This document shows positions 430 through 58,916 of a stretch of 64,000 nt of DNA, piece after piece. The notes under the pieces were generated by a model. That model was not told where the DNA came from, ran no database searches, and saw only the letters and a list, made by a program, of their open reading frames with translations. Source of the DNA: Paraspadella gotoi (lineage: Eukaryota; Animalia; Chaetognatha); the NCBI GenBank assembly GCA_051294375.1, contig JBJCIZ010000744.1, positions 1,230,262 to 1,294,261 of the forward strand, written 5' to 3'. The stretch's first letter is position 1. Each line of letters starts with the position of its first letter. A program made the translations under genes and the position numbers.

Positions 430-609
430 TGTGGCGAATCCTAAATTCGTCTCCCGTATAGCTTGGTGAAGCTCAGCTCGTCCCATTGGCTTGGACAGCT
501 AAACACGCCAGTGACATGGGGTGGTCACTGCAGGTCCAAAGCCCTGAGCGCCAGCTGTCGGGAGATGCCTCACACCCCAGGCATCACACATGTCCCCCCC
601 GTTGCCATA
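430..609 (+). mobile_element. Short TGTGGC...GCCATA element (family A variant) with 4-bp TSD and twister-like core
   Basis: GTAC at both 426-429 and 610-613. It interrupts a family C repeat whose uninterrupted copy has a single GTAC at 54140-54143. Confidence 0.8.
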
Positions 610-770
610 GTACCTCATTTTATAATATGAAGCTTTCTGTTTAAACCTTATGCTGAACATATAAATTTCATAAATCTACGTGGTATTTTGCAATTGCATA
701 TCAATGCGTTTTAAACGGCCTTTGAGCATTTATAAATTACAACGGTATATACGAAATATTTCCCCCCAAC

Positions 771-2764: not shown

Positions 2765-13546
<10,782 letters not shown>

Positions 13547-30110: not shown

Positions 30111-30513
30111 AGACAGAAAAGGTTGCAAGAGATTTGTCTACTTTGAAATTTTCTCAGAGTTCCGTGATGGTTAAGCGAAGATTCGTGATTAAGCGCCTCA
30201 ATTATTTTTCTAACCTGCGGCCGCGAAAAAAAAACATCAAAAAACAAACTCGGGCGCAGATTTAGGAGAGANNNNNNNNNNAACCTGCAGCCGCGAAAAA
30301 AAACAAAAAAACAAACTCGGGGGCAGATTTAGGAGAGAGAAATTGATGGTTGGCCAAAGTGGCCAAAAGCCAACAACTATCCCTTTGGCCTGTAAGATGG
30401 GGTAAAATGGGCATTAAAAAATAAAACAAAACAAAAAACAGATCTTTTTAAAACAATTCATTAGTAGAAGAAGTTTGAATTTGTTTACAACAACGATTTT
30501 ATTGGTACATAGG

Positions 30514-31721: not shown

Positions 31722-32394
31722 TCAATCCCATTTATTGCTCAAAATGCTAAAACCTTTCCCCTTGCTTTTTTCGTTACCTTTGCTGCAAATCAATTGATAA
31801 GAATTTTTAACCAATTTTTTGGTTTTCATGGTGGAAAGATTTCGAGCATCAGTGAACCAGCGGGTAGTAAAATCGCCGCCTTTAAGCTGCCGAAAATGTT
31901 TCGTATACATTGGACGAGTCATCTTCGTGTCCGAGCCTTTTCGAAAGTGGCCACGTCTTCTCTGAAAGACGGAGATAATTCGTGTCGAAGTAACGAAACA
32001 TTCTAACCTCATTTCCGTTAAAGTCGAAAGATTTCTTGAAAAACTCGAGTTCTATGGCAACAGCCGGGTTGTCTGTGATGCCCATTGGGGCATCTCACTG
32101 TTGGCTTTGGGGGCTTCCGACCCTCAGTGACGCCTCCAGTCACTGGCGCGGTTACCCGAGGACGGGTCTCGCTTTGCCAACGCAGAGGGAAGTCGTTAGG
32201 AATGTGGATAGAACGCAACGCCTAGAATGGGATTGGCTGAACGATGGTGGACGTGAGGCGGTGTGAATATACTACCACAGTTCCTTCGAAGCTAAATCCA
32301 ATCCTTCGCCCAGAATCAATTCATCCACGTTGGAATCGTTCAATTTCAACGGAGTCCAACATCGAACAGTTGTTGTTGTTGTTGTTGTTGACAT
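31722..32394 (-). pseudogene. Intronless ORF remnant, possibly Bro-N-like, split by a family A insertion
   Basis: Removing 32053-32279 plus one TSD joins [13 protein letters not shown]...LASKE to LEFFKKSFDFNGNEVRMF in frame. Frameshifted downstream. Confidence 0.45.
32053..32279 (-). mobile_element. Family A element (TGTGGTAG...GCCATA) with 4-bp TSD and twister-like core
   Basis: GTTC at 32049-32052 and 32280-32283. Nearly identical to 36691-36948. Confidence 0.88.
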
Positions 32395-32437: not shown

Positions 32438-33560
32438 GATCTGCTTTATCAGCAGATCCGACTCTATAACTCACTTTTTATAACTCACTTTTTCGTCCGT
32501 CGGTCCGCCCCCTCAATATTGTCGGGCACACACTTATATCATGTCAGAACATCGGAATTATGATATAATTATGCAAAAAAAATGATGTCCGTCCGTCCGT
32601 TGTCGTCTCGTCCGTCCGTCCGTCCGTCCGTCCGTCGTCCGTCCGTCCGTCCGTCCGTCTCCCACCTTAGCAAAAAACACCAATTACTCGTGATTGGATG
32701 GATGATTTAAATGAAATTTGTGTGTGGATAGGTAAGTGTGTGATTGAGCTGGATATTAAGTTTCGATGGAATCGTCCGAGTGGAAATGAGTTTAAATGGA
32801 AAAAACAAAAAAAATATATTCACTATTTGAACACCAATTGCTCATGAGTGGATGGCTGAATTTGACCTGGAATTTTGTATGTGGGTAGGAAAGTTGTGTG
32901 ATTGAACAGGAAATCAAGTTTCGATGGAATAGTTTGAGTGGAAATGAGTTTAAATGGAAAAAAACAAAAAAACCTGTTTTACTAATTGATTATGCTTCTT
33001 TTCCCTTTATATTAAATGTATAACTGCAGGATGTATTAATAATCAAATAATTAATCAGTTAATTAATCAATTAGTAAATAAATTAATCAATTAATTAATT
33101 AATTAATCAATCAATCCGTCCATCCGTCCCATCTTAGCAAAAAGCTCCAATAACTCGTGATTGGCTGGTTGGATTGGAATTAAATTTTGTGTGTGGGTAG
33201 GAAAGTGTGTGATAAAAGCTGGATATAAAATTTCGCATGGAATCGTGTGAGTGGAAATTAGTTTAAATGGAAAAAAATATAAGTCGAATTTACTAAAATC
33301 TTTTTACTTATTTTAACCAATAAATACTCCAATTAATCATAATTGGATGGATAGATTGAGTTGAAATTTTGTGTGTGGTAGGAAAACGTATGACGAAGCT
33401 TGATATAAAGTTTCAGTGGAAACGTACCAGTGGAAATGAGTTTTAAATGAAAAAAATATGAGTCACATTTACTTGAATCTTTTTATTTATTTTAACCCAT
33501 GATAGATTGAGATGAAATTTTGTGAGCCGGTAGGAAAGTGAGTGAAGAAGCAAGTTGGAA
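32438..33560. mobile_element. DINE-1/HINE-like (Helentron-associated) non-autonomous element
   Basis: Terminal hairpin GGATCTGCT..AGCAGATCC, a (GTCC)n microsatellite at ~32588-32660, and internal ~160-180-bp repeated blocks (GAAATTTTGTGTG..GTAGGAAAG..AGTGGAAATGAGTTTAAATG). Classification by architecture only. Confidence 0.55.
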
Positions 33561-35402: not shown

Positions 35403-38400
35403 TCAAGAATCCCCTCCTCCACCAACCTCCCCTTTGATCAACCTCTGGAAAGCCTTGAGCCTCCCCGATCGCCTCGTCCGCTCCTCCAACTCTCTCGACT
35501 TCTCCTCCGCGCGACCGAGAATCTCCGCCGGGATTCCGGCCAAGAGGCCCACGTTGAGTCCGAAGCTTCGTTCCGCTTTTCCGGCAGCGAGTGAATAAAG
35601 CATCTGCACCGAAGCCGGATGTTTCCGAGGTGAGGATTCTTTTTCCGGCGCCGGAACGGAATCATTCTCCTCCTCCTCCACGACGAACGACATGTGAAAA
35701 TTCTCCACGATCCCGGGATACTTCTCCGCCAACCGCGTCACGAGCGGATAGTGCGTCACGAACAGCGTCAAACATCCAACCGTCTCCACGAAATGGCGCA
35801 GCGTGGCGTCGGCGATGGCGGTTCCGTCGTGGGTCGACGTCCCGCGCCCCAACTCGTCGAGGACGACGAGAGAATCGGCGGAGGCGTCGCGGAGAATCTC
35901 GGACGCCTCCGACAATTCGACCATGAAGGTGGAGGCGCCGCGGAGGATTCGATCCGAGGCGCCCATGCGGACGAAGACGGCGTCGAAGATGGAGAGACGA
36001 GCGGCGTCGGCGGCGACGAAGGATCCAGTCTGAGCCATGACGACCGCCTGTTTGGACAAACATTTGGAAATATAAAAGCTTACGTCTCTTCGTGATTTAA
36101 TCAATAAAAATTTACTTTTATATATTATATTATGATTATAATTAATCGTCGTTAATACTTTCTCTTTTTCATATACAGATCACGTGATATAATTGATTAA
36201 ATGAATATTTAAATTTGAACTTCATCACAATTCCAAATCACACAGAACTAAACCTAATCCGATCCTTGCCGAATCTAACAATAAAATCCGCTCATCACTG
36301 GTGTGGAACTGTGCAATGTGCAGTGTGCATCTTGCCAGTTGCCGTTTAGTCAGCCCCCTTACCAACGCTGCTTGACGAATGAAGGAACTCTTTCCTCCCA
36401 TATTAGGTCCAGTGACGATCATGCAGCGCCGCCCGTCGCCGCTGAGGTCGGCGTCGTTGGGGACGAATTGCGCCGAGTCGGGGAGGAGAGTCTCGACGAT
36501 CGGGTGGCGTCCGGCGACGAGTTGGAGGGTGGGTGGAGATGAGACGAAGGAAGGGCGAGAGTAGTTGCGAGATTTGGCGACGTGAGCTAAGGACATGAGG
36601 CAGTCGAGGATCGAGAGGGACTGCGTTTAAAACGGAAGGGAGGATTGAGAAATGAAGTATTAAACAAATGAACTTTCTATTAAATAAACTTGTGGCGGTA
36701 TATTCACACCACCTCACACCCATCATCGTTCAGCCAATACCATTGGCTCAGAGGAGCAACGCACCATCCCAGGCGTTGCGTTCCATCCACAGTCTTAACG
36801 ACTTCCCTCTGCGTTGGCAAAGCGAGACCCGTCCTAGGGTAACCGCGCCAGTGACAGGAGGCGTCACCGAGGGTCGGAAGCCCCCAAAGCCAACAGGTGA
36901 GATGTCCCATCCCAATGGGCATCACAGGCAACCTGGCTCTTTGCCACATTAGGTCATTAATCTTTAATCCGCAATAAAATTTTTCAATTTGTTGTTATGT
37001 TGCTATGTTATGTTATGAGATTTTATCAGATCTGATCTCATTTTATTTGATCTGATCTGATTCGATTTCATGAGGTTTCTAAGTTCTGCAAAGATGCTGA
37101 CACTTAATAAAGCAAAAATTTGGAAGAAGAGTCGTTTTAAAAGTTCAGGAAACTGTGGCACATGTTTACGGCTAACAATTGAAGTCTAACAAGAGGAAGA
37201 TAAAAGGAAAATAAAACTAAAAAAATTGTGATATGTAACGACTTGAGAATATGAGAGAGGACAACACATAACGCTGAATGATCGAGTCAAAGCGTAAGAG
37301 AGAGAGAAAGAGAGAGCTACTTTAAAACAAAAAGGAACCAACCTGCACAGCACGCTGATACTCGAACTGTCGCCGATTAAATTCCTCCAAGAACTTCCCC
37401 CACGCGTCTTCGACGTCCAAGTCCAACTGCTCCCTCAACGCCGCCAATCTCCTCGTCTCCTCCAAGACGAAAGGAGATTGAAATCTCTGACAAGTCTTCG
37501 TCGATTGGACCGCGACCCAATCGTCCGGCACGCGCATGCGCATCGCCTCCATCGCTTTGGTTAATCGAATCTCGACGAGGTATTCCTTTCCGGAGACGGT
37601 CAAGTACTCCATCCTCGGCGCGGCCAGAGTTTCGCGAATCTCTTGTAAATGCTCATCCAGTGACGCTTCTACGTCGCCGATCCGCGCCAGCGTCTCGACG
37701 ACGCGCGGATATTTTCCGTAATCTCGAAAGGTGCGTCGTTTGTCGCCACGAGAGACGGCGTCTTCGTCGAGGGCGCCGAGGAAGGCGTCGACGTCTCTCG
37801 TGTTTTCCTCGAAGGCGACGAAAGAATCGCGGATGAGGGAGGAGGACGAGTCGACGAGCCTTTCCGCGCGCGACCAACCCTGGCGAAGTCGAGCGAAGGC
37901 TTTGAGGACGTGGAGAAAGTCGGCCACGGAGCACTTTTTGAAGTAGATCGTCGAGAGGCCCCGCTCCAAGTCGGCCAGGCCTTTGAAACAGATTCTCAAA
38001 TGAGCGAAGAGTTGAGAGGAATCGGCGAGGATCTCTTCGACGGCATCGAGACGCGACTCGATGACGGAACGGTCCGTCGACGGCGCCGCCAACCAGCGCC
38101 GCAGCAGACGCTCGCCGAATTTAGTCTTCGTGGCGTCGAGGACGGAGAAGAGGGTGCCGGCGGGGCCGCCGTCGACGAGGTTGTTGAAGATCTCCAAGTT
38201 GCGGATGGCGGCGGCGTTGAGGCGAAGGGTGGAGGAGGGGGCGTTGGTGGAGGCGGAGGCGGATTTGAAGACAGACTCGAGGCCGAAGTCGTGGAGATAA
38301 TCGAGGAGAGAAGAAGCGCAGATCTGGAGATCGGGGGAGAGAGAGAGGAGGGAGGAAGAGGAGGAGGAATCTGGAGAAGAGGGAAGGGATTATTAATTAT

Positions 38401-41400
38401 AAATAGTTAAGAATATTATTATTAGTATTATTATTATTATTAGTAGCATATCTGTATTATTTCTATGCTCTAAGATTTAATGATGCAAGAGCGATGACAT
38501 TGAGTTCTAATTTTCTTAAAATCTTTTAGATTTATTTTAGTTTGTTTTAGCTTATTTTGTTTTAGTTTATTTTAGTTTGTTTTAGTTTATTTTGTTTTAG
38601 TTTATTTTAGTTTGTTTTAGTTTATTTTGTTTTAGTTTATTTTAGTTTGTTTTAGTTTATTTTAGTTTGTTTTAGTTTATTTTGTTTTAGTTTATTTTAG
38701 TTTGTTTTAGTTTATTTCGGCATGAAAAGTTTCCGGTCCAAACGGAACAACGACGACTAACCTTTGCAAAATAGGCTAAGTCGGTCGGCGGCGGCCTTTT
38801 TGTCGGCCATCGGGGCCGACATCCGCTCGATCCTGGCTTCATCCGGAGTCGGGGCGAATTTCTCGATGACTTTCTCTGTCGCGAGGGAGAGGGAGGGAGG
38901 GAGGAGAAGCTCGACTGGCTGACGAGGAAGGAGGAAGGGAGGAAAGAGGAAGGGTGGGAGAGAAAGAAAAGAAGAAAAACGAGGGAGGAAAGAAAAGAGA
39001 AAAACGAGGGAGGAAAGAAAAGAGAAAGGAGAGGGAAAGAAAAGTGTAAGGGAAAGGAGAAAGAACAAGAGATAAAGAAGGGGAAGAGAGGAGGAAAGGG
39101 GGAAAAAAATATGGTGAGAAGTAATGCATAGGCTTAACCATAATTCAAACTACAAACGTAGTATCCAGACACGTTTTTATTAAATATTTTATTAGTACCA
39201 CTACCACTCACTTCCGGACACTAATATAACGCTAGGATCTCTAGTTAACATTAACCAACAATAATAAAACTTTTCAAATAATGACATTTTTTAAATCGTG
39301 ATAAAAATGTTTTTTCTAAGAAAATACTATAATATGCAAATAAGATTAAGAACGCATCGAACCTGCATTTGATGCAGCATCGTCTCGAACTTTGATCGCG
39401 ACGGTGAATCGATAAAGGAATCGTGAGTGACTTTCGCCGTCGATGGATTCACGGCGACGAAGGAGATCGTCACGTCGGCAAAGGAGGTGGAGAGGGGCTG
39501 GGGGAGGAAATAAGGAATTCAAACAATTAAATTAAGGGAGGGGTCCTTTATACAATCGAAACGATTCATTGATAGGGAAGCCAGATACTCTGAGAGTGAA
39601 TAAACGAGACTGTGTGAGAGCCTTGATTGAAAGCTTGCAGGGACCTGCTACGTTATTATCTTGTAAGAGTGATTTTAGCCTGTCCAAAGTCAGGGGGAAG
39701 ATAGCTCATTTATTAAATGAATGGATAATTTTATGTTGGAAGTACCAATTTAATAAAGTTCTTATGGTATAATTAAAGATTAAACATGGTCGGTTTGTAG
39801 ATAAGGTGCTTTAGCAATGAAACGGGTCCTGGGCTTGGAATTAGGCTTGGGGGGTTTTCGAGGCCCCCAAGGCGGTTTAAGGCCGTCCTCATGCTTCCCG
39901 CAGGGTAGGTACCATTATTGGTGATCAATCCCGGTACATGATGGCCACGAGCCGATGTTATTACTCAATGAGCCACCGGGTCACGACTGAAGGTAACATG
40001 CTTTATAATTATAGGCGGGGGTAAACATATTGCGATGCCCGACTACAGGTTATTTAACACACGTTAGTTATGAGGATTAGGGATGGTTAAGAAAAGGTGG
40101 GTGATAGGTGAGGGTAAGCGATTGCGAGGTTATGGGTTCATAACATCGCAGGAGTATCAAGCCACCAGAATCGAATCGGATCGGAGGCTCGGGCGAAATG
40201 GAATCGCCGAATCCTGATTGGTCAAGCACGAACCGGAATCGACCAATCAGCTTGCAGAATCATTGAATTGTAAATTTTACCCACGTCGCCGATCCTCTTC
40301 CCAAGATATAAATAGACTTAGCTTGTTCTAGTTTCAGTAGAATTGATCAAGACTCCTGCGCGCGTCTCACCGTCACCTTTATTCTCAGAATAAAACTTAT
40401 TCTTGATTTCGTCCATAGAAATCCATGAGTTTTTCCTTAAATGTGGTGGCAGCGGTGGGATTCGAACCCACGCCTCCGAAGAGACTGGTGTAAATATACA
40501 TATTTAAAAATGTTTAGGTATTACATAAACATTTTTAAAACAACGATTTTATAATTGTAAACTGTCCTGTTATTTTACGTAAAAACGTAACAACGTAAAA
40601 AACCCAAAAACCCACCTTCCCCGCAGCATCAGCTGCAGCCGTGGCGACGACGGGTCCTTCCTTGACGCACATGAGGATTCCAGAGTCGGAAGACTCCGCG
40701 TCTTTATCACCGCGTGGCGCATCGTCGGCGGCGGCGCCTGATGCCTCGTCGGGGTCGCCTACGCCTGCGGGATTAATATTTTATTTAATTTTACTATAAT
40801 TCTTTCGAGGAAGTTAAATTTAAGTTTTGGTATGTAGATGATGAGTCATTTCTTTCTTTTTTTCTATTATAACTGTTGTTAAAATAATCCAAAGAATAAA
40901 ATCCAAATTTGAGTTTAAGATTTTTGAATGAAACCGACGAAAGATGAAAGTGAAATGAAGCAAAGACGCTTGTCAACTCGACGACGACGACGACGACGAC
41001 GATTAAAAATGGAAATAATCAATGGATCGATTGTTTTTTTCTTTTTCTTGGCTCTGGTTTCGCTTTTGTTTCTCTTTGCCTTTGGTTTCGATCGAAATCC
41101 GAATTCGAGGCTTCGATCCTCGATCTCGAGGTGGCTTCGTCTTGAGGGTCATTGTGGTTGTTTCGTCACGTGACAAGTCATTGGACAATGGACACGAGAC
41201 AGTTCGGAAACGGGCGCCACCTTTTATTGTTTTCTTAATTATTTTTTATTCAGCCATTATCATGGGAACATCGAATAAAAACATAATTCACAGGCGAACC
41301 CCTGAAGTGCATATTTCGAAGAAACCCAGTAACAACAAACTAAATAGATAAAAATGTACAGAAGGCTTCGTATTATAAAATGAGTTACCCGTTTTTTGTG

Positions 41401-44023: not shown

Positions 44024-44156
44024 TTCTCGCTTAGGGTTGTAAAAAGGCGGAAAGTATGAAATTATAAAAACATATAAAAAGGTAAATAACGAAAAAGCCG
44101 AGGTGTGTGTAAACATAAAATAACCATTAGTTTTATTCAATCTCTATTTGGAGGAT

Positions 44157-44241
44157 TCATTTCATCGGCGACCAGGGCGCCGGCTTTAAGATCTTCGTCC
44201 AGTTGTGGGAACAGTGGGACATCAGCTCATTCCGTGCCAAA
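44157..44241 (-). CDS. Duplicated (alternative) terminal exon of NIPSNAP
   Basis: Acceptor GTTGCAG followed by LARNELMSHCSHNWTKILKPAPWSPMK*, paralogous to the 44785-44910 exon. Confidence 0.55.
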
Positions 44242-44784
44242 CTGCAACGTAACGTGGAAGCTTTGACTATGGAAGAATTAGATGGTACCATATTGAAAAT
44301 TGTCATGTTACATTTTATTACTTTAAAACTTCGAGGTGTAAGGCTTTTGGAAAAAAATTATTTATAAGGCGTTTTATTAAAAAAACTTGATATAATAAGT
44401 AGAAACTTATTAGTTATAATCACCTTAGAGGGAGAGAGTGTGCTGCGAACTGACGACAAGGCTGACATGTTGCTTAAACAAACATTCTTATGCCATGTAA
44501 ATGCGGAAAATAAGATTATATAAACGGGAAATAACAAAAGATGTATATAAAAAATGGGTAGGGGAAGATTAATTTTAAAATAAAAAAAAATATAGTTTTT
44601 AATTATAAATTAAAAAAAAAATCAAAATTAATCATACCCCACTTCCCAAAAAACTTTTAACAAACAAGTTAGCTGTATGACTCTAGGCGTTAATTCAGTC
44701 TTCAGAGAAGATCTCTGTAACGTTTATTCGTCAATTCTTGTCTTTTCTCCAATTCGGTTTTAGATCATTCTCTATTTGGAGGAT

Positions 44785-47700
44785 TCACTTCATGGGCGAC
44801 CAAGGCGCCGGCAGTAAGATCTTTGTCCAGTAGTGGGAACAGTGGGGAAGCAGTTCCTCCTTCGTCAATACGTAATCCGGGTCGAGAGCCGCGTCGATGG
44901 AACTTTGGACTCTGTGGAAACAAAAGATCCTGTTGCTGTAAATGATGCTGGAGAGGATGCTGCAGGGCATGCTAAAGCATAATGTGTTGGCTTTAATTTA
45001 TTGATACGGTGAACTGGTGCAAAATTGTTTATCAAATAATGGTCATTGTAATTCACCTTCCCAAGGATATTAAAATCTTACCCCATGAGGGAAACCTATA
45101 ATCAAAATCTCTATACACCCCTCTATTCCACACCTATGGTCCAAATCGGGATAATGCCACAAGTGATAGACTGTGTTCATGACTCCTCCCGCTTGAGCCT
45201 TCCATGCGGCGAGGAGGTCTCCCTGATGAGACTCTTCCTTTCCCATCAACATCTCCTGCATCTTAGTCGCCCACTTGGATTCGGAGCCGGTGAGGGTATG
45301 GGCGCAAAGCTCGTAAACGCCTAAATGGGGAGAAAAATACGTTAACATCATTTGCATATTTCGGTAAATTTTTTATATGAAGTTTAGAAGGTTAAATCAA
45401 GTTTATCTTTAAAATTACCACGCAATTGTAGAACCTAATAACTCACTGCTCCTTGCGACGTACTGATTAAACTTACATAGAACGTAACATTGTTAATTGC
45501 GTTTCCTTGATACACATTTTTCTTTATATTGATGCCTATGGGACAGACCTTGGTGAACATTCTCAAAAGTGAGAGGAAAATCTGTATTAATTATTGCCGG
45601 GTCTGATTATCAGGAATCATTTCTCATGTCACATAAGTCTCTGTCCCGATTATCGATTTTTTTTTCTAAAAATAATTTGTAGCACAGGCAATTTAATGTC
45701 ATTGTTTCAAATCAAAAAATAACTTTCCCAGCTTGAAAATTTCTTCAATCCTTTTTTTCAAATCCCCCCCTCCCCCCACCTTCACCTCCTTCCCCCCGCG
45801 GGTCCTCGATCCTGCTCCAGGGCAGCAGAGCGAGGGCGACGTTGTCCTGCTTGACGACGCCTTTGAAGACTTTGGAGATGAACTTCTCTTGCCAGTCGTC
45901 GTCGTCGGCGAGGGCCGCGCGGACGGAGCAGCGGTGGGCGAAGGAGTCGTACTCCCAAATGTGGACCGCCTAAGATTTGAAGACGATTTATTTTGACATC
46001 TTTAACCGCAAGGCGGCGCCCACACGGGCTAGACGAATTGACTTGCCCTCCTGCACATCAATGGCCGCTGATGAACGGTTGATGGATTTTTAGTTCACCA
46101 ATAATGGAAACGTTTTTTTAGGTTTTAAATTCGAAATTTTTTTTTTATTTGATCGATTGAACAAATTGATTTGTTTAATTGTTTAATTAAGCAGAACATG
46201 TGAGAATAATTATTAATTGATAAATTTGAATCGCGTTTGAATGGCGATGACTAATTTAGCTTCAGTTTAAAAGAGTAGAATTCTTTATAAAAGATAAATC
46301 AAGAGAAGAGAAGAGAAGAGAAGAGAAGAGAAGAGAGAAACGAAGATAAGATTCAGGCTTTGAGGCAGCTTCGACATAAGACAAGACATTAGACAATAGA
46401 AAAGTCAACTTCTTTACATTAAAAGGAGCCAATGTCCCCATGTCCCGATCCAATATCCATGTCCCTCTTTACCCAAGCAAATCCACACCCCCCCCCGCTC
46501 CTCTCCATTCATAACCTGATTGATTCCTCCGAATTCGGTGAACCAATAACCAAGCAGCTTGGAATGATTGGTTCTCAAGTGAATGAAGTCGCCGCTGAGT
46601 TTTTTAAAGTCGACGATGAATTCCGGTTTCACGTCGTAGATTCGAAGTTCGTGAACTTTGGGTCGAGCGGAGGAGAAGGAGGGGGAAGGGGGAGAGGATG
46701 AGGAGGCGTCGACGTTAGCAGGCTCCGCCTTTTGTTCGAGAAAATGAAATCATTCGTCAGCATGAATAATATAAGCTTATTTATTAAATGAATGGATAAT
46801 TTTTATATTGGTTGTACCAATTTCATAAAATTCAGCTCCTTGTATTTTGATGCTAGTGCGGAGTACAATAAGACAAGTATTCCCCGATCTAATACTTAAG
46901 GGAGTGGTCTTTTCATACAATTGAAACATTCTTTGAATATTATACCACTTCATTGATAGGGAAGCCAGGTACTCTGGGAGTGAATAAACGAGACTGTGAG
47001 AGAGTCTTGATTGAAAGCTTGTAGGGACCTGCTATGTCATTATCTTGTAAGAGTGATGGAGGCCTTAAACCACCAAAGCCTGTCCAAAGTCAGGGGCAAG
47101 ATAGCTTATTTATTAAATGAATGGATAATTTTTATATTGGTTGTACCAATTTCATAAGTAACAATATATGACAAAGAAATTGTGCAAGTTGCGAGATTAC
47201 TCGTTTTACCGAATTTTCATGTTTTTTTTTTTTAAATGATGTAAAAATTATGTTATAATTTTATTTATGCAGTTATTAAGAGAAATTTACGAGATTGGGA
47301 TAACTAATATAAAAATTATCCATTCATTCGAGATATAAGCTATCTTGGCCCTGATAATGGTTATGGTGGTTTAAGTCCTCCATCACACTTACAAGATAAT
47401 AACATTGTAGCAAGACCCTGCAAGCTTTAAATGAATACTGTCTTCAATTGCGTAATATGTATATATGTATATAAATTATATATATTATATATATATTAAC
47501 ATACCATTAATTATCTAACTTATTATTTAACTAATTAATTTAACTTATTTAAATTATTTATAATTTACAAATTATTACAAAACCTTAATAAATTTCTCTA
47601 AATTAAATAATGCTGTGATGCCAGGGTTTTGGTCTGTTTAAGATAAACATTCAAATATACTTTAAAATATAAGATAAGCAACAACGGAGGATCACCATTT

Positions 47701-50269: not shown

Positions 50270-53200
50270 GATGGGTCAACAATTCAAACGACTTTGCCAT
50301 TGGGATATCTCTGTATGAAAATGGTTTACCTAATTATACATGACATCGGTTAATATAGGTTCAGTGGATATTAAAGCTTAATCAGATTACGACAATATGC
50401 AAATGAGATTGAGGAACTCAATCTCTCTTTCTCTCTCTCTCTCTTTCTCTCTCTCTCACCACCCCCACCCGGTTGGCTCAGCGAGTCCCTCCCCATGACA
50501 TCCAGCACATCGACGGCGGCGGCGAGCAGCCCCGTCTTGTGGGCGGGGCGGAGGAAATGAAGGAGGACGCGTGTGGCGCGATAAAGGACGAAGTATTCCT
50601 TGGCCGTCTCGCTCTTCAAGTCTGAGCGGAGAGTCTCGAGCACCTTGGGTTGGAAGATGGGAAGATGGACAGATTGGTGAAATCGACGGACGTACGGATT
50701 GGATAAAAATGACATGGGACTAACTCGAATTAACCAAATGACTACAATTGTTTAACCGTTTAATGTAAAAAAAAAAAAAATTAATGATTGTCGGCATCCT
50801 TCCAATTTTAACCTTGGCCAAAACGTCGGCGCGACTCAATGTTCTGAGAATCAAGAGACAAGACAAGAATCGCGCGTGAAGATTCGGACTTCGGAAGAAA
50901 AGATCGAGAGACGACGACGATCTGTGAAAAAGGGTTTTTTTCAAAAAAGGGGGCAGAGGGGGTTTTAAGGGGATGAAGAATTTGTGTAAAGATTGAAAGT
51001 TGAGACCGCTATTTCATAAAGAATAATTTATTAAGTCTACCGTGGCGGTATATTCACACCGCCTCACATCCACCGTCGTTCAGCCAATCCCATTGGCTCA
51101 GAGGGGGAAATCATCCTAACGACTTCCCTCTTGGCAAAGTGAGACCGTCCTGAGGATCGAAAGCCCCAAAAGCCAACAGTGAGATGCCCCATCCCAATGG
51201 GCATCACAGGCGACCCGGCTGTTGCCATCCTACTAGGTTTTATTATTTTTTATCTTGGTTTTGTAAACGCCGAATAGTTTCTAAGCTGTTTTAAAGACAG
51301 CATCCCTATTCATACCAAACTACAACAAACAGGACAAGATTAAATTTCACAAAACGCTGAGGAAGGAGTCAATAAAGAAAAGAGGAGAAAGAATAATATA
51401 ACGAGCGTCGTTCTGATCGATACAGTCTTTAAATATCTCAATTTAATCAAACCAATTTAAATGTTAAAAACTAACAAAGACGGAATTCTTACCTCCCTTC
51501 CGACTTTTCGGTTTTATAAGGAAGAAGTAAATTAGATTCGGAGACGGATTCTCTCACAGCGAAGGCAGAGGCGAGGTTCTGTTATATAATAAATGTAATA
51601 ATAAATATATAAAATCCTACTTACTAACATAATTTCGTAATTAAATACCACCAATATAAATATTATTCTTTATTCAACCAACAAGTTATCTTGCCTCCTG
51701 ACTTTGGACGGGCTTTAGTGATTTAAGGCCACCATCTTTCGTACAAGTTAACTCTCACAAGTTCACTCTCACACCTCAGAGTACCCGGCTTTCTATAGAC
51801 CCGGTCTCTATAATTTATCTCCCCCCCCATCCCGCACAACCCTCACCCGCCCCCCACCTCCCCTATGTCAACTCACCCCACTTCTCTCTCCTTCCTTCTC
51901 CCCCCAAACGATCTCTCCCAAGTGTCTCAACGACGCGGTGGGCGTGGCCGTCGTCGACGCCTCGTCGTTCCTTCGCTTCTCCTCGAGCGCCGCCAACGCC
52001 CAATGAAGAAACTTTAGCGCCGGAAGTTGAGTCCGCGCCACGCCGCTACCGCCGCAGATCAGCGGCAGCACGGCGACGAGCGGCGGCAGCGTCCGGTGGC
52101 AGCGGTCGCGCAGCGGCAGCCGGCGATCGACGCCGACGAGAGAGTTGGCGGAGGCGGCGAGGACGTCGGGCGGAGATCGATCGAGATGGACGAGGAGCCA
52201 CTCGAGGAGAGAAAGGACGAGATCGAGGAAAGGACGAAGAGAAGGTTGAGAAGACGATTGAGGAACGGGTCGAGCTGACCCTTCTGGAGGACATCGTCGA
52301 GTCTCGGCTCCTTCAGCGTCCGATCGAGATCTCTCTCTAACCATCGGCGGCGAAGTGGCTCGTCCGCTTTCGCCTTTTCGCAATTCCGGCGACCGATCCC
52401 CGCCTCTTCGCCCGGCGAGCCGTTCCAAGTTGGTCACCCTCGCCTTCAACCTCGAGTTCTTCGACGTCAACGCCTCCGCCTCGGACGTTAATCGACGATG
52501 TTCCTGTTACAGAAGGTTGTGTCCGTCAATCTCGATTGCATCATCGCAGGAGTATCAAGCCACCAAAAGCAAATCGGATCGGAGACTTGGGCGATCTCCG
52601 CGGAAATTAGTTTAGATTTAGTTTAGATTTAGATTCAAAGATGCTCATGTAATTTGGCGAAGTAATCATCACGGACTATTAAGGGCTTATAAATCATTAA
52701 AACTGGCCGACTTTTTCATAATTAATAATATGACTTAGGAAGCGTTTTATTTAAGGCTTATTTATGTTGGGACGCGTCCCTAATCGATGACTGATGTTTG
52801 AAAGCATAGTCATTACTAATGACATGAGGCCTCCTCTGAAGCCCGAATTATTATTCCTCTATTTAAATTAATATTTCAGCATTAAATTAAATACTAAAAG
52901 AAAGAAAAAAGTACCTCCTTGAGCTCCGCGTGGGAAACCCGCAGTCCCTCGTAACTAGTCTTCAGCCTCTCGTGATTCTTGACGGCGTCCTCCAACCGGC
53001 GCTTCCAGTCTCTCGTCGACGACTGCGCCGTCGCGACATCTCCGGCGTCGGACAATCTTCTCTCCACCTCCTCGTCCACCGCGCGATCGAAATACGCCTC
53101 CGCCTCCACGAGCGCCGCCTCCCGCTCGTCCAAGGCGGATTCTCGGAGGCGAAGTCGGTCGCGTTCGAGGCGGAGTTTGTCGGAGATGGCGGTCAATTCG

Positions 53201-55113: not shown

Positions 55114-57062
55114 TCAACCCGCGGCGAATATCTCAATCGCCTTCGAGTTCAACCGGAAAAAGTCTCGTTCATCGGTTTGCGTCAAATTCTTTCCTCCGAA
55201 TTTCTTGTAGAGGGAGATGGCGTTTCGGTTCCACTCGAGACAAGTCCATTCCAGTCTGAAGAATATACTAACTTATTGAAATGATTAGCTAAAAAATTTT
55301 ATAATGCTTCATTAATAATTTAAGGAGCTAAGGATCACTTTGAGAGTAGTGAAAGAGTGAAAGAATCTAGGGAAAGCTGGCAGAGTCTAGCAATGTCATT
55401 ATCTTGAAAAGAGATGGAGTCCTTCACTCATTATATCCTGTCCTTGTCCAAAGTCAAGAGACAAGTTATCATTTATTGAATGATTGGATAATTGTTTCAT
55501 TGGTTGTTTCAATTAAATTACTATTAAATACTACAATGATGTGATCTAAATATTTTTTACTGACCGAACGCAATCCATATCCACGGCCCTATTGACCACT
55601 TCGATGAATAGCGTTTGACCCCAACCTTTCCTTCTCTCGCTCTCTTTCACGTAAAGGTCCTCCAAAAACATGGTCAGCCCTTCCCAAGCGGAATATGAGG
55701 GAAAGAAGAGGGCGTAAGCAATTATTTCCTATATAGAAATGGCAAGCGTTATATCTTAAAATTAAAAAAAAAAAAGACTAGAAGAAAAAGATTGTTTTTC
55801 CATCAAATTCAACAACCTTTTCAACCTCCACGACCAAGGAAAAATACTTGGGTTTCGAAGAGAACCCGTCCAACTTCAATTTCTCCGTCGTCATAGCAAC
55901 CTGCTCCGCCATGTTTTCAAAAACCGCCAATTCCATGATCAAACTAAAAATAGCCTCGCAATCTCCGACGATGGCCGGACGAATCGAATCGCGTTTCGTC
56001 TACGAGATGGAACTTTTTTTTATATTCAAACTGAGCCATGCAAAATTTAACAAAATCTAACATTTCAAACGCTATCGATTAATGATTATTACATCGTTAA
56101 GGCCTTTGATAGAATCCATGGAATCTCGGTCCAACTGATAATAATTCCACTTTTCCTTCGCCGTCAAATTAATGGCGCCGCGTTTTTCGTAAAAACGAAT
56201 CGCGATATCGTTCCATCTCATGCATATCCATTGGACTCTTTAAAAAAATGACAATATAATTATTATATTATATTAAAGATTACAATAAATTTACCAATAC
56301 ACAAACCAAAAAGTACGAAACCTGCGACAACCCTCCTTCAACGCCAGCCGCGTCAACTCTTTCCATAAAAGATTTCCGACTCCCTTCCCCCTCGCCGAAG
56401 GTTTGACGTAAAGATCTTCCACGAAAAAAGTCGGCCCGTCCCAAGTGGAATAACCGTCATAGAAAAGCACATAACCGATCAGTTTCTGCAACACGTACAG
56501 AAGGCTTCATATTATGAAATGATATTGCCACAATATCAGGGTTTTTTTTCCCTCGCCAAACACGGTTCCCACCAAACTACCCGAGGGAATTTTATGAAAT
56601 TTAATATATGGAGTCATAATGACTAAATAAATAGAGCTATCGAGGCGAATGTTGATGTTCAACCCCTATGGGTGACCCCCTAGGGCGCCAATAACGGCTC
56701 AGGGGTCAAATAGTGATATTCGCCTCGATAGAATCGTGCATACCAAATTTCAACCAAATAGGTTGTGAAGTCTATTCGGAACAGATATCATTTTATAATA
56801 ATAAATATATAATTCTAAATAAATTTTAATTTTATAAATTACTTGGAGCACGTGGATCCGAAATTCCTTGAGATTCAAAAAGTACCTCGTCCAATTCCGC
56901 GACGAGGCAATGATAAAGCGCCTCGTTCGAGAATCCATCCCTTCGAAGCTTTTCGCCGGTTAAGGTCACGCGTTCGGCCATGTTTTCGAATTCCGCCAAT
57001 TCCTTGATGAGTTGGACGATGGCGTCGCAATCCTCAACGGTCGCTCGACGGATTTGTAACAT
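55114..57062 (-). CDS. SAT2: Two tandem SAT2-like GNAT (diamine/thialysine N-acetyltransferase) domains, probably one fused ORF
   Basis: Domain 1 exons are 57062-56886, 56485-56322 and 56237-56093. Domain 2 exons are 55999-55817, 55728-55565 and 55255-55114. Both have ELAxFE, EDLYVK, RxKGxG, WN..AI..Y motifs and the same intron positions. Confidence 0.85.
55320..55512 (+). repeat. Family B diverged copy
   Basis: TTATCTTG..GATGG..CTTGTCCAAAGTCAAG..CAAGTTA; P4-equivalent changed to CTTG/CAAG. Confidence 0.65.
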
Positions 57063-57520
57063 TTTCTTTGAACTATGTCGTTTAAATCAATATTGCTATC
57101 AATAATATTAAAATCCAACAACCGTTCATTGCGGTCGTTGGAGCCGAAGTCGCTTGCCTCTCAAACCTAAAAGGTTCGGGGTTCTTGCCCAGTGGCCGCC
57201 TAGCAGTCAAGCGGGACGGGTAGCTTAACACGCCAGTAGCAGGCTGCTTTACAACTATAACTATCATTATGCCTCTAATATTATTGTTACTCGGTCTTGA
57301 AAAAAAAAGAAAATCACAACAATCAAAAGAGGAAACTCACTATTTAAAAAAAAATGAAATCAAAAAGAAAGAAATAAAATTAAAAAGAAACAATTAGAAA
57401 GAAAAACTTACATATAAAACTCGTGGATGTCAAAAAATAATTTTTAAAATTTCAAATTAACATCACATAGAAAATGTTTCTTTCTCGCTATTTTGTTATC
57501 CCTTTCTTCCTGCTATAAGA

Positions 57521-57735
57521 TATGAAATTGGTACAACCAATATAAAAATTATCCGTTCATTTAATAAATAAGCTATCTTGACCCTGACTTTGGACAGGCT
57601 TTGGTGGTTTAAGGCCTCCATCATTCTTACAAGATAATGACGTTGCAGGTCCCTGCAAGCTTTCAATCAAGACTCTCTCACAGTCTCGTTTATTCACATC
57701 CAGAGTAGCTGGCTTCCCAATCAATGAAGAGGTAT
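57521..57735 (-). mobile_element. Family B copy with near-intact twister-like core (57574-57636)
   Basis: Reverse complement of 46945-47156 with few substitutions. Confidence 0.85.
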
Positions 57736-58017: not shown

Positions 58018-58916
58018 TCATTTCCCAGTTCGTTTAAATTCGTCCATTTCGTTTCTCAAATGTTTTTTTAAATTGGAGACGAAACTTTGATCTCTGTAGT
58101 CGGTTGGAGGATGAGAGTTGGGAGAACGCGGAGGGCCGAGCATTCTGCCAGTCAAGGATTTTAATGATCCTGTGTTGGGGAGGAGAAAAAACGGAACCGT
58201 CATCGTTGTACGGGCGAGTCGCCTACGATACTTTTAGGTCTGTCTGGCCGATAATTTTAAGGAAATTATATAAAATACATATTTTATATATATATATATA
58301 AGTGAGACGATAAGACAAGAACGGTAATTCCAATGAGTTGCGCCGCAGTAACTTTATTTTCACGTATATTTTCAAAATGCACTGCATCAAAATTTCGTCT
58401 TTTATTCTAGACATCGTGAATTTCCTCTCGTTTCGTTGTGTTTTGGATTAAAAGAAGATGTTTGAAATTGTTTTCAACAACTACAATAAAATCGTTGTTG
58501 AAAATAATTTAAAACATCTTCTATTAGTCTTTTATTCTTTATAGTTTTAGAAATTCCTGAAGGCGGCGCTAGCAGTCTTTTAGATTTGAGTTTTTTTTTT
58601 CCTGTCTTAACAAATGATCAAACAACTATAAGCAAATTATATATATTTTTTAACGTAAGTAGGAAAGACTGACAGACAGACCAACAGAACGACCTAAAAG
58701 TGACTTATAGATTTGCTCCGCGAGTACTCGCGGCGCAACTAAAGTTTGTTCGAATCCATAATTTTCACGTCGTTTAAAAATACCTGTGGCTCTGAAATAT
58801 CCGTGCGCGACGATCTGCGCCGCTCTACGGATAGGATAAGAGTTGGACAGTTGGTCCGCGAGTCTGTGGTAGTTTTTCGCCAATAGGAGAGAGAGCACCG
58901 AGCGGAGCGGAGACAT
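58018..58916 (-). CDS. NCBP2AS2: NCBP2AS2 (HIAR) family small protein
   Basis: Exon 58916-58784 encodes MSPLRSVLSLLLAKNYHRLADQLSNSYPIRRAAQ, with the family motif LS.S.PIRRAAQ. It joins in phase 1 to exon 58169-58018. Confidence 0.82.

What the first reader, a model, noticed from the sequence alone, without database searches (positions are those of the whole stretch)
47057..47068. Palindromic P1 linker shared by all twister-like cores suggests dimer-dependent activation
Seen: the 5-8 nt between T1' and the UAA cleavage motif is too short for a good hairpin but is self-complementary in independent families. Examples are AGGCCU (47060 and 57.6 kb), CCUAGG (36833), AGCU (~497 and ~57222), GGCC (39.9 kb and 13.09 kb) and GACGUC (~5386). 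Established: minimal Penelope-type hammerheads have a palindromic stem III thought to form between two ribozyme copies. Inference: these twisters form P1 between two copies, so only tandem or LTR-LTR transcripts would cleave efficiently and solitary intronic copies would be harmless. I do not know of this being described for twisters.
Basis: inference. Interest (0 to 1): 0.8.

Follow-up and report, generated by a model that had tools for sequence, protein, structure and literature searches.

The report
Palindrome-linked twister ribozymes in retroelement tails
High-copy repeats in this animal genome carry a twister-type RNA fold whose first helix is replaced by a short palindrome with no room for a loop, so it likely pairs two RNA copies and may make the predicted self-cutting depend on such pairs, as reported for the hammerhead ribozymes of related jumping genes.

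Summary
47057-47068 is T1'-AGGCCT-UAA of a type-P5 twister fold (47040-47104) in a very high-copy, 5'-truncated repeat, likely a Penelope-like tail. Rfam places AGG/CCU as P1 with a zero-base loop. Across thousands of contigs, the linkers of family A (AGGCCT) and family B (TCCTAGGG) show no listed variant. "All cores" is overstated: only 3 of 5 parseable window families fit in register. The 0.5-kb, 57.2-kb and 5.4-kb examples are weak, and 4 of 7 family-A copies here have imperfect linkers. Outside support is strong. All 7 twister cores I recognised in 53 published Naiad tails carry palindromes at this spot. A metagenome family shows a central AT-to-GC swap that only two-strand pairing explains. 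None of 34 phage P5 twisters has a zero-loop centre. Pairing between copies is likely selected (about 0.8). That cleavage depends on it is about even (0.55), because published twisters cleave without P1. Nothing was assayed. I found it in no paper in nine searches; this scan noted the Naiad form earlier on other DNA (e1-9558858).

The parts
46841..47157 (+). Family-A repeat copy (5'-truncated, very high copy; likely the terminal repeat of a Penelope-like element)
   Evidence: Self-BLAST, alignment; depth rises toward a sharp 3' end at 47152-47157 with heterogeneous AT-rich flanks
47040..47104 (+). Type-P5 twister fold: P5 47040-47/47097-104; P2 47051,53,54/47069-71 with bulged 47052; GA 47055-56; T1 47057-59/47084-86; T2 47072-73/47089-90; P4 47079-82/47091-94
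   Evidence: All listed pairs complementary; Rfam Twister-P5 E=0.003, below gathering score; 1 of 43 core places variable versus 33 of 197 outside, p=0.014
47060..47065 (+). P1 position: zero-loop palindrome AGGCCT
   Evidence: Rfam alignment shows P1 with 0 loop bases; no variant of 3% or more listed; self-duplex -9.1 versus forced 1-bp hairpin +5.6 kcal/mol
47066..47068 (+). UAA; predicted scissile bond between 47066 and 47067
   Evidence: Position in the Rfam alignment; cleavage not tested
46774..46828 (+). 55-bp 3'-end fragment of family A directly upstream (partial tandem; no ribozyme)
   Evidence: 100% identical to 47103-47157
47282..47443 (-). Inverted, diverged family-A copy; linker AGGACT (47379-47374), L4 lost
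57521..57735 (-). Family-A copy, linker AGGCCT (57617-57612), one P2 pair mutated
11099..11366 (+). Family-A copy, linker AGGCCT (11273-11278), deletion across T2/P4
23335..23598 (-). Diverged family-A copy, linker AGGACT (23437-23432)
51646..51751 (-). Diverged family-A copy, linker TGGCCT (51731-51726)
55357..55514 (+). Diverged family-A copy, linker AGTCCT (55418-55423)
36691..36946 (+). Family-B repeat with a P3-containing type-P5 twister fold (36813-36894); linker TCCTAGGG 36832-36839; this copy has one extra C at 36828
   Evidence: self-duplex -11.0 versus forced hairpin +2.7 kcal/mol; not detected by Rfam
32054..32281 (-). Family-B copy, linker TCCTCGGG (32162-32155)
39830..39900 (-). 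Family-E decayed twister core (approximate ends), linker CGGCCT (39885-39880); T1 and T2 pair, P2 and P4 imperfect
13081..13100 (+). Family-E fragment, linker GGGCCG (13086-13091), no L4
461..560 (+). Decayed relative of family B (approximate ends); linker ACAGC 495-499; catalytic GA not in place
57210..57255 (+). 5' half of a twister-like core (approximate ends); linker GTAGCT 57220-57225, not self-complementary in register; P4/L4 missing

Best explanation
These repeats carry a type-P5 twister fold in which the P1 hairpin is replaced by a 6-8-base zero-loop palindrome that likely pairs with the same palindrome of a second RNA copy, giving a predicted symmetric dimer in which self-cleavage at U|AA is likely much faster than in a lone copy. 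Shown: the twister pairings, the zero-loop geometry, the linker's conservation across the genome, and the recurrence of different palindromes at this position in published Naiad tails and in a metagenome family. Predicted (folding without pseudoknots): alone, the free linker AGGC pairs with the P4 arm GCCU (47078-47081) and unfolds P4; in a dimer the linker is occupied and P4 forms. Inferred: the repeats are terminal repeats of Penelope-like, probably Naiad-type, elements. A duplex of about -9 kcal/mol (sub-micromolar affinity) would form readily between two repeats on one tandem or LTR-to-LTR transcript but rarely between separate dilute transcripts. Cleavage would then be biased toward element-derived multimeric RNA, the logic already reported for Penelope hammerheads with a palindromic helix III.
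For: (1) Rfam P1 with 0 loop bases; T1, T2, P2, P4 and P5 all pair, with T1 and T2 changed on both sides relative to the Rfam consensus. (2) No listed linker variant in family A or family B. (3) 7 of 7 twister cores read by eye in 53 Naiad consensus tails (Mley, 1_Movir, Mgal, Bpla, Mphi, Scon, Mmer; last ~330 bases of each seen) have two abutting palindromes between T1' and the scissile site, with varied centres such as CGCG, UCGA, GUAC, CAUG, CUAG, GCGC, UGCA and CCGG (PMC8557442 supplement). (4) Metagenome scan with the first palindrome left free: 94 of 121 loci pass T2/P2/P4 filters. Among the 79 of these with a 22-base linker, the central two bases are AT in 55, GC in 18, GT in 3 and other in 3; the main forms are GCTATAGC and GCTGCAGC. 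A double change at a zero-loop centre keeps pairing only between two strands. (5) Control: 0 of 34 distinct phage P5 twister hairpins have a zero-loop centre, and 3 of 34 have a self-complementary 3-base loop. Window families 3 of 5 versus 3 of 34 gives p=0.019; adding the 7 Naiads (10 of 12) gives p=4e-6, inflated by kinship. (6) Energies: AGGCCU duplex -9.1 versus hairpin +5.6; P4 probability 0.07 in the monomer and 0.99 in the dimer. (7) Precedent: Penelope hammerheads with palindromic helix III cleave as dimers (PMC4209133, PMC6765202).
Against: P1 is reported dispensable: a mini-twister without P1 cleaves at almost wild-type rate (review PMC5408937), and P1 imperfections had no effect in a high-throughput test of natural twisters (PMC11662667). 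A 6-base linker could simply span the helix end in a monomer. The monomer misfold comes from a model that cannot score the two pseudoknots, so it is biased against the native fold. Two diverged family-A copies share AGGACT, which looks like an amplified older subfamily with a much weaker duplex (-1.7). The lay-reads figures are depth-weighted and favour young copies of 80% identity or more. In the main metagenome family the second, cleavage-proximal element has an A.G mismatch and fits a 5-bp hairpin equally well. The AT/GC swap is one evolutionary event. Two of five window families do not fit in register. No pair of intact cores in tandem exists in this window. No RT or endonuclease could be tied to the window's families. 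A Penelope hammerhead was dispensable for insertion in vitro (PMC11167929).
Confidence: 0.55

Rival explanations
1. The monomer cleaves well without P1, and the palindrome pairs two element RNAs for another purpose. Cleavage leaves the palindrome at the very 3' end of the upstream product, so two such ends could anneal to promote ligation or circularisation, priming, template switching that builds partial tandems, or co-loading of two RNAs on a dimeric RT.
For: All the comparative evidence for two-strand pairing fits equally well. P1 is dispensable in published twisters. A Penelope polyprotein is predicted to be a dimer and does not need hammerhead cleavage in vitro (PMC11167929). By eye, about ten other Naiad tails carry a 10-base palindrome inside a motif that is not a twister.
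Against: The palindrome sits exactly in the P1 slot, abutting the scissile base, in every case. Folding without pseudoknots predicts that the free linker disrupts P4. The hammerhead precedent couples the palindrome to activity.
Confidence: 0.3
2. The linker is a shrunken intramolecular P1 (1-2 pairs closing a 2-4-base loop) or a DNA-level palindromic protein site; no RNA dimer is involved.
For: In the window's family-A variants AGGACT and AGTCCT the outer two pairs stay while the centre changes. B's second copy TCCTCGGG keeps its outer pairs. The longer Naiad elements can fold as short hairpins.
Against: A hairpin gives no reason for the central bases to be complementary, yet they are in families A, B and E, in 7 of 7 Naiad cores and in 73 of 79 metagenome linkers, with an AT-to-GC swap. 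Forced hairpins are unfavourable (+5.6, +2.7). The sequence differs from family to family and uses G-U flanks, unlike a fixed DNA site.
Confidence: 0.12
3. Chance: short self-complementary words picked out after the fact in decayed repeats.
For: 6.5% of 4-mers are palindromic. A strict descriptor has about 0.2 chance hits per shuffled window.
Against: The linker is conserved across the genome in two unrelated families, and the pattern recurs in other animals' elements.
Confidence: 0.03

Closest known systems
Twister ribozyme, type P5 (Rfam RF02684, clan CL00120)
   Same: Order of elements, GA before T1', UAA cleavage motif, L4, pseudoknots T1 and T2, stems P2, P4 and P5; optional P3 in family B.
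   Different: P1 is a zero-loop 6-8-base palindrome rather than the 15-28-base hairpin seen in 34 phage examples. P2 is 3 bp with a bulge in family A. The score is below the gathering threshold, and family B is missed altogether.
Minimal type-I hammerheads of Penelope-like elements and retrozymes (Cervera and de la Pena 2014, PMC4209133; Lunse et al., cited in PMC6765202, not read)
   Same: A ribozyme in the terminal repeat of a retroelement, with one helix reduced to a short palindrome that can form between two copies.
   Different: An unrelated ribozyme fold. The hammerhead needs helix III for its core, whereas twister P1 is reported dispensable, so dependence on the dimer does not follow automatically.
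Naiad Penelope-like elements (Craig et al. 2021, PMC8557442)
   Same: 5' truncation, partial tandem and inverted copies, AT-rich targets and no canonical hammerhead. Naiad tails hold twister cores that share family A's 3-bp bulged P2, AC/GU T2 and CCUG/CAGG P4 (Mgal, Bpla).
   Different: Naiad tails have two palindromes (about 20-24 bases); the window's families have one minimal palindrome. The passages I read do not report twisters, and a library search for twister plus Naiad found no paper. No Naiad ORF was found for the window's families.
Schistosoma T-variant twisters of Perere-3 LINEs (Liu et al. 2021, PMC8501958)
   Same: A retroelement-associated twister with a poor or variable P1.
   Different: Type P1, at the 5' end of a LINE, with P1 made from the target-site sequence; the words palindrome and dimer do not occur in the main text.

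Membership tests
Twister ribozyme (type P5) | Conserved G-A before T1' and (U)AA at the cleavage site | tested here: met
   G47055, A47056 and T47066-A47068 align to the Rfam model and show no listed variant
Twister ribozyme (type P5) | Pseudoknots T1 and T2 | tested here: met
   T1 U-A, G-C, G-C; T2 A-U, C-G, changed on both sides versus the Rfam consensus; family B has T1 CCG/CGG in the common form lacking C36828
Twister ribozyme (type P5) | Stems P2 and P4 (P5 terminal) | tested here: met
   P2 3 bp plus a bulge, P4 4 bp, P5 8 bp; the bulged base 47052 is the one that varies
Twister ribozyme (type P5) | P1 as an intramolecular hairpin | tested here: not met
   Arms abut with 0 loop bases; forced hairpin +5.6 kcal/mol. 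Hence filed as a variant
Twister ribozyme (type P5) | Rfam gathering score | tested here: not met
   25.8 bits versus 37.6; no hit at gathering level in the window; family B no hit
Twister ribozyme (type P5) | Site-specific self-cleavage | not testable with these tools
   Needs an assay; only contigs were available, which cannot show RNA ends
Penelope-like element (Naiad clade) | ORF with GIY-YIG endonuclease and telomerase-like RT (N-terminal endonuclease, CxC motif) | tested here: inconclusive
   No such ORF recognised among the window's ORFs; 56-aa frames of family A gave no Pfam or database hit; no whole genome held
Penelope-like element (Naiad clade) | 5'-truncated copies in partial tandem and inverted arrangement | tested here: met
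   46774-46828 plus 46841-47157 plus inverted 47282-47443; depth rises toward the 3' end
Penelope-like element (Naiad clade) | No poly(A) tail, AT-rich insertion sites, no canonical hammerhead | tested here: met
   Loose ends after 47152-47157 are heterogeneous and AT-rich (agreement about 0.4); no Rfam hammerhead
Dimer-dependent ribozymes (as Penelope minimal hammerheads) | Self-complementary zero-loop helix at the family level | tested here: met
   Families A and B; 3 of 5 parseable window families
Dimer-dependent ribozymes (as Penelope minimal hammerheads) | Monomer inactive, dimer active | not testable with these tools
   Only pseudoknot-free folding predictions; literature on dispensable P1 points the other way

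The most novel reading that the evidence does not exclude
A widespread class of obligate-dimer twister ribozymes. In animal Penelope/Naiad elements the twister's P1 has been converted into a palindromic switch that holds a lone copy in an inactive fold and fires only when two copies pair. Twister and hammerhead would thus have converged independently on the same copy-counting device, which lets tens of thousands of insertions be tolerated.
Probability: 0.35. Interest if true: 0.85.

Novelty: new variant of a known kind. Interest (0 to 1): 0.68.

Why it matters
It would supply the ribozyme that Naiad-type Penelope elements were reported to lack. It would give a natural dimer-forming twister, which I did not find in the papers searched, and show two unrelated ribozyme folds converging on palindromic pairing in the same retroelement niche. 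That makes the open question of what Penelope ribozymes are for testable with a 65-base RNA, and offers a minimal concentration- or tandem-dependent RNA switch. It also implies that Rfam thresholds miss a very large number of animal twisters.

Tried and rejected
Rfam at gathering level found nothing in the window, and family B was missed even at E up to 10. No genome is held. Family-A reading frames as a GIY-YIG or RT C-terminus gave no hit in Pfam, among 1.84 billion representatives or among longer proteins, so a coding-constraint explanation of the linker has no support. An attempt to fetch full-length Naiad proteins through locus L257 gave one decayed 224-aa protein and then nothing. A short-linker scan of prokaryote genomes (26 of 64 parts) gave 1 of 120 loci passing filters, probably chance. 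In phage contigs (59 of 64 parts), 43 of 124 loci passed (38 distinct linkers). I dropped four without a stable hairpin before the count of 34: one junction between tandem P1-type twisters and three likely chance hits. In the metagenome scan (6 of 64 parts) 27 of 121 loci failed filters or did not parse and were dropped, and 15 of the 94 passing loci with other linker lengths were left out of the central-base count; the passing loci come from very few assemblies and about three families. No RNA holder was listed among sequencing runs, so ends at the scissile site could not be examined. An orientation-bias test of intronic copies had too few copies. The binding energies printed for the extra copies, and the 47.3-kb duplex, came from indexing errors and were not used. 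The supplement of PMC11662667 could not be read and might list short-P1 natural twisters; Lunse et al. is not held; Roth et al. 2014 and Kosutic et al. 2015 were not read.

Full report
Setting. The window is gene-dense eukaryotic, apparently animal, DNA. Exons on the minus strand match DEAD helicase, copine, BTB, MutS III, NIPSNAP, CCDC138 and membrane-transport families. No genome is held. Self-comparison shows several dispersed repeats: family A (at least 11 pieces), family B (3 copies) and single or paired motifs that I call C (0.5 kb), D (57.2 kb), E (39.9 and 13.1 kb) and F (5.4 kb).

The reference site. 47057-47068 reads TGG AGGCCT TAA. Rfam finds nothing at gathering level. At permissive level Twister-P5 matches 47052-47094 (25.8 bits, E=0.003, gathering 37.6) and places AGG/CCU as P1 with zero loop bases. 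P5 (8 bp), P2 (3 bp plus a bulge), P4 (4 bp), T1 and T2 all pair, and T1 and T2 differ from the Rfam consensus on both sides. Laying four public runs on 46860-47200 collected 26,617, 19,255, 6,462 and 1,478 contigs. Depth rises toward a sharp 3' end with AT-rich, heterogeneous flanks. No variant of 3% or more is listed at 47053-47075. In 47053-47095, 1 of 43 places varies, against 33 of 197 elsewhere in 46900-47139 (p=0.014). These are depth-weighted contig figures that favour young copies, not copy counts.

The other examples. Family B has a complete P3-containing core. In one search (4,293, 3,840, 1,799 and 296 contigs) the extra C at 36828 is left out in 34-46% of summed depth, and further contigs break off there with the shorter form, which restores T1. 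No variant of 2% or more appears in TCCTAGGG among the 40 rows shown (10 hidden), so the 32.1-kb copy's C looks like a minor change. E keeps a central GGCC in both copies, with mismatched outer bases and a decayed P2/P4. C needs the U of UAA to make AGCU and lacks the catalytic GA. D has AGCU out of register and no 3' half. F has no L4, P4 or T2. So 3 of 5 parseable families fit (p about 0.003 at the window's 4-mer palindrome rate), and 'all cores' is wrong. Within family A, 4 of 7 window copies have imperfect linkers; two share AGGACT and other diagnostic changes. Only the 47055 copy passes a strict descriptor.

Control. A scan of phage contigs for P5 twisters with 2-30-base linkers gave 124 loci, of which 43 passed pairing filters (38 distinct linkers). 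Of these, 34 have stable 15-28-base P1 hairpins; none has a zero-loop centre and 3 have a self-complementary 3-base loop. A short-linker scan of prokaryote genomes gave 1 of 120 passing. The window's P1 is therefore atypical.

Independent relatives. Earlier scan notes pointed to Naiad elements, and I checked this in the supplement of Craig et al. 2021 (PMC8557442). I saw the last ~330 bases of 53 of 54 Naiad consensus sequences and recognised twister cores by eye in 7: Mley, 1_Movir, Mgal, Bpla, Mphi, Scon and Mmer. Cores further upstream would have been missed. T1, T2 and P2 co-vary among them. All 7 have two abutting palindromes with 0-1-base centres between T1' and the scissile site, with many different central tetramers. 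Five come from what appear to be related molluscan elements and are not independent. Mgal and Bpla share family A's bulged 3-bp P2, AC/GU T2 and CCUG/CAGG P4.

Metagenome family. A scan that fixed the core but left the first palindrome free returned 121 loci, of which 94 passed filters. Among the 79 with a 22-base linker the central dinucleotide is AT in 55, GC in 18, GT in 3 and other in 3. GCTATAGC versus GCTGCAGC is a double change at a position that cannot pair within one strand. It is one event in one family, and that family's second element carries an A.G mismatch. Loci L257, L276 and L293 closely resemble the Bpla tail by eye.

Energetics (ViennaRNA, no pseudoknots). AGGCCU self-duplex is -9.1 against +5.6 for a 1-bp hairpin; UCCUAGGG is -11.0 against +2.7; AGGACU is only -1.7. 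For 47040-47104 the monomer model pairs the linker with the P4 arm (P4 probability 0.07), while the two-copy model pairs linker with linker (about 1.0) and forms P4 (0.99). The ensemble energy is -44.2 against 2 x -17.8. Because T1 and T2 are not scored, this suggests a monomer off-state but does not show one.

Mechanism. Shown: twister anatomy, zero-loop P1, family-level conservation, recurrence across elements. Likely (about 0.8): selection for pairing between two RNA copies. Uncertain (about 0.55): that pairing strongly raises cleavage. Against it, a review reports near wild-type cleavage without P1 (PMC5408937, passages), and a high-throughput study found no effect of P1 imperfections (PMC11662667, passages; supplement unreadable). 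PMC8501958 calls P1-less cleavage inefficient and links activity to P1 (passages and section 19). For it, Penelope hammerheads with a palindromic helix III cleave only as dimers, and weakly (PMC4209133, passages; PMC6765202, passages). The main rival is that the monomer cuts and the palindrome, left at the 3' end of the upstream product, pairs RNAs for ligation, priming or template switching. PMC11167929 (passages) found hammerhead cleavage unnecessary for insertion in vitro and predicted a dimeric protein. The 'harmless solitary copy' corollary is untested. The intact copy is antisense to the NIPSNAP-family gene upstream of whose first matched exon it lies. The copies on the host-gene strand at 47.3, 23.4 and 51.7 kb all have non-palindromic linkers, but that is too few to test.

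Membership. It works like a type-P5 twister and meets the core features, but it fails the hairpin-P1 feature and the Rfam threshold, so I file it as a variant; cleavage is untested. Penelope/Naiad origin of the window's families rests on architecture and tail similarity; no protein link was found.

Novelty. Nine library searches (listings and abstract starts) showed no paper on dimeric or palindromic-P1 twisters; twister plus Naiad gave 0 papers. A 2026 preprint on retrozymes and Penelope elements and a 2026 review of RNA oligomers do not mention twister (passages), and PMC13725137 mentions dimers only for hammerheads (passages). Subscription papers, and the alignments of Roth et al. 2014 (recalled, not read), were not seen. 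This scan earlier noted Naiad twisters and, in e1-9558858, the two-palindrome form; I saw that note after my own analysis. What this window adds is a minimal single-palindrome form in at least two unrelated high-copy families, with genome-wide conservation and a control set.

Verdict. Observation partly confirmed, interpretation partly supported, new variant of a known kind, interest 0.68.

Noticed in passing
PMC8557442 supplement File S5, tails of CGi, Sglo, Olur, Tgra, Pmar, 1/2_Skow, 1/2_Pfla, 2_Chem: About ten Naiad tails share a conserved motif that I could not parse as a twister. It contains a roughly 10-base palindrome of varying sequence, and may be another dimer-forming ribozyme or structure.
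   Followed up: no
PMC8557442 supplement File S5, tails of 1-3_Nbra, Hcon, Hpol, Asuum: These Naiad tails show hammerhead-like cores instead of a twister, in line with the paper's 'HHR_core' remark; the ribozyme class seems to be swapped among Naiad lineages.
   Followed up: no
L073 1-158 (similar in L030, L111): Phage contigs with back-to-back type-P1 twisters in which the P1 3' arm of one copy overlaps the 5' arm of the next.
   Followed up: partly
window 44130-44218 and 44757-44846: An 89%-identical duplicated piece at the 3' end of the NIPSNAP-family gene; possibly a duplicated or alternative last exon.
   Followed up: no
window 6081-6462 and 10173-10616: A 94%-identical duplication flanking a run of N near 10417-10568; possibly an assembly artefact.
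   Followed up: no
window 58446-58529: An 84-base imperfect palindrome, part of which matches 30462-30504.
   Followed up: no
window 32646-33500: Tandem units of 158-179 bases, duplicated as two blocks.
   Followed up: no
window 46953-47117 (frame also at 11112-11279 and 57560-57727 minus): One reading frame of family A stays mostly open through the twister core, but it has no Pfam or database relative.
   Followed up: yes
window 461-620: Motif C shares P3, P5 and the 3' terminus with family B but has a different T1 triplet in L4, so it is a diverged subfamily rather than an independent family.
   Followed up: partly
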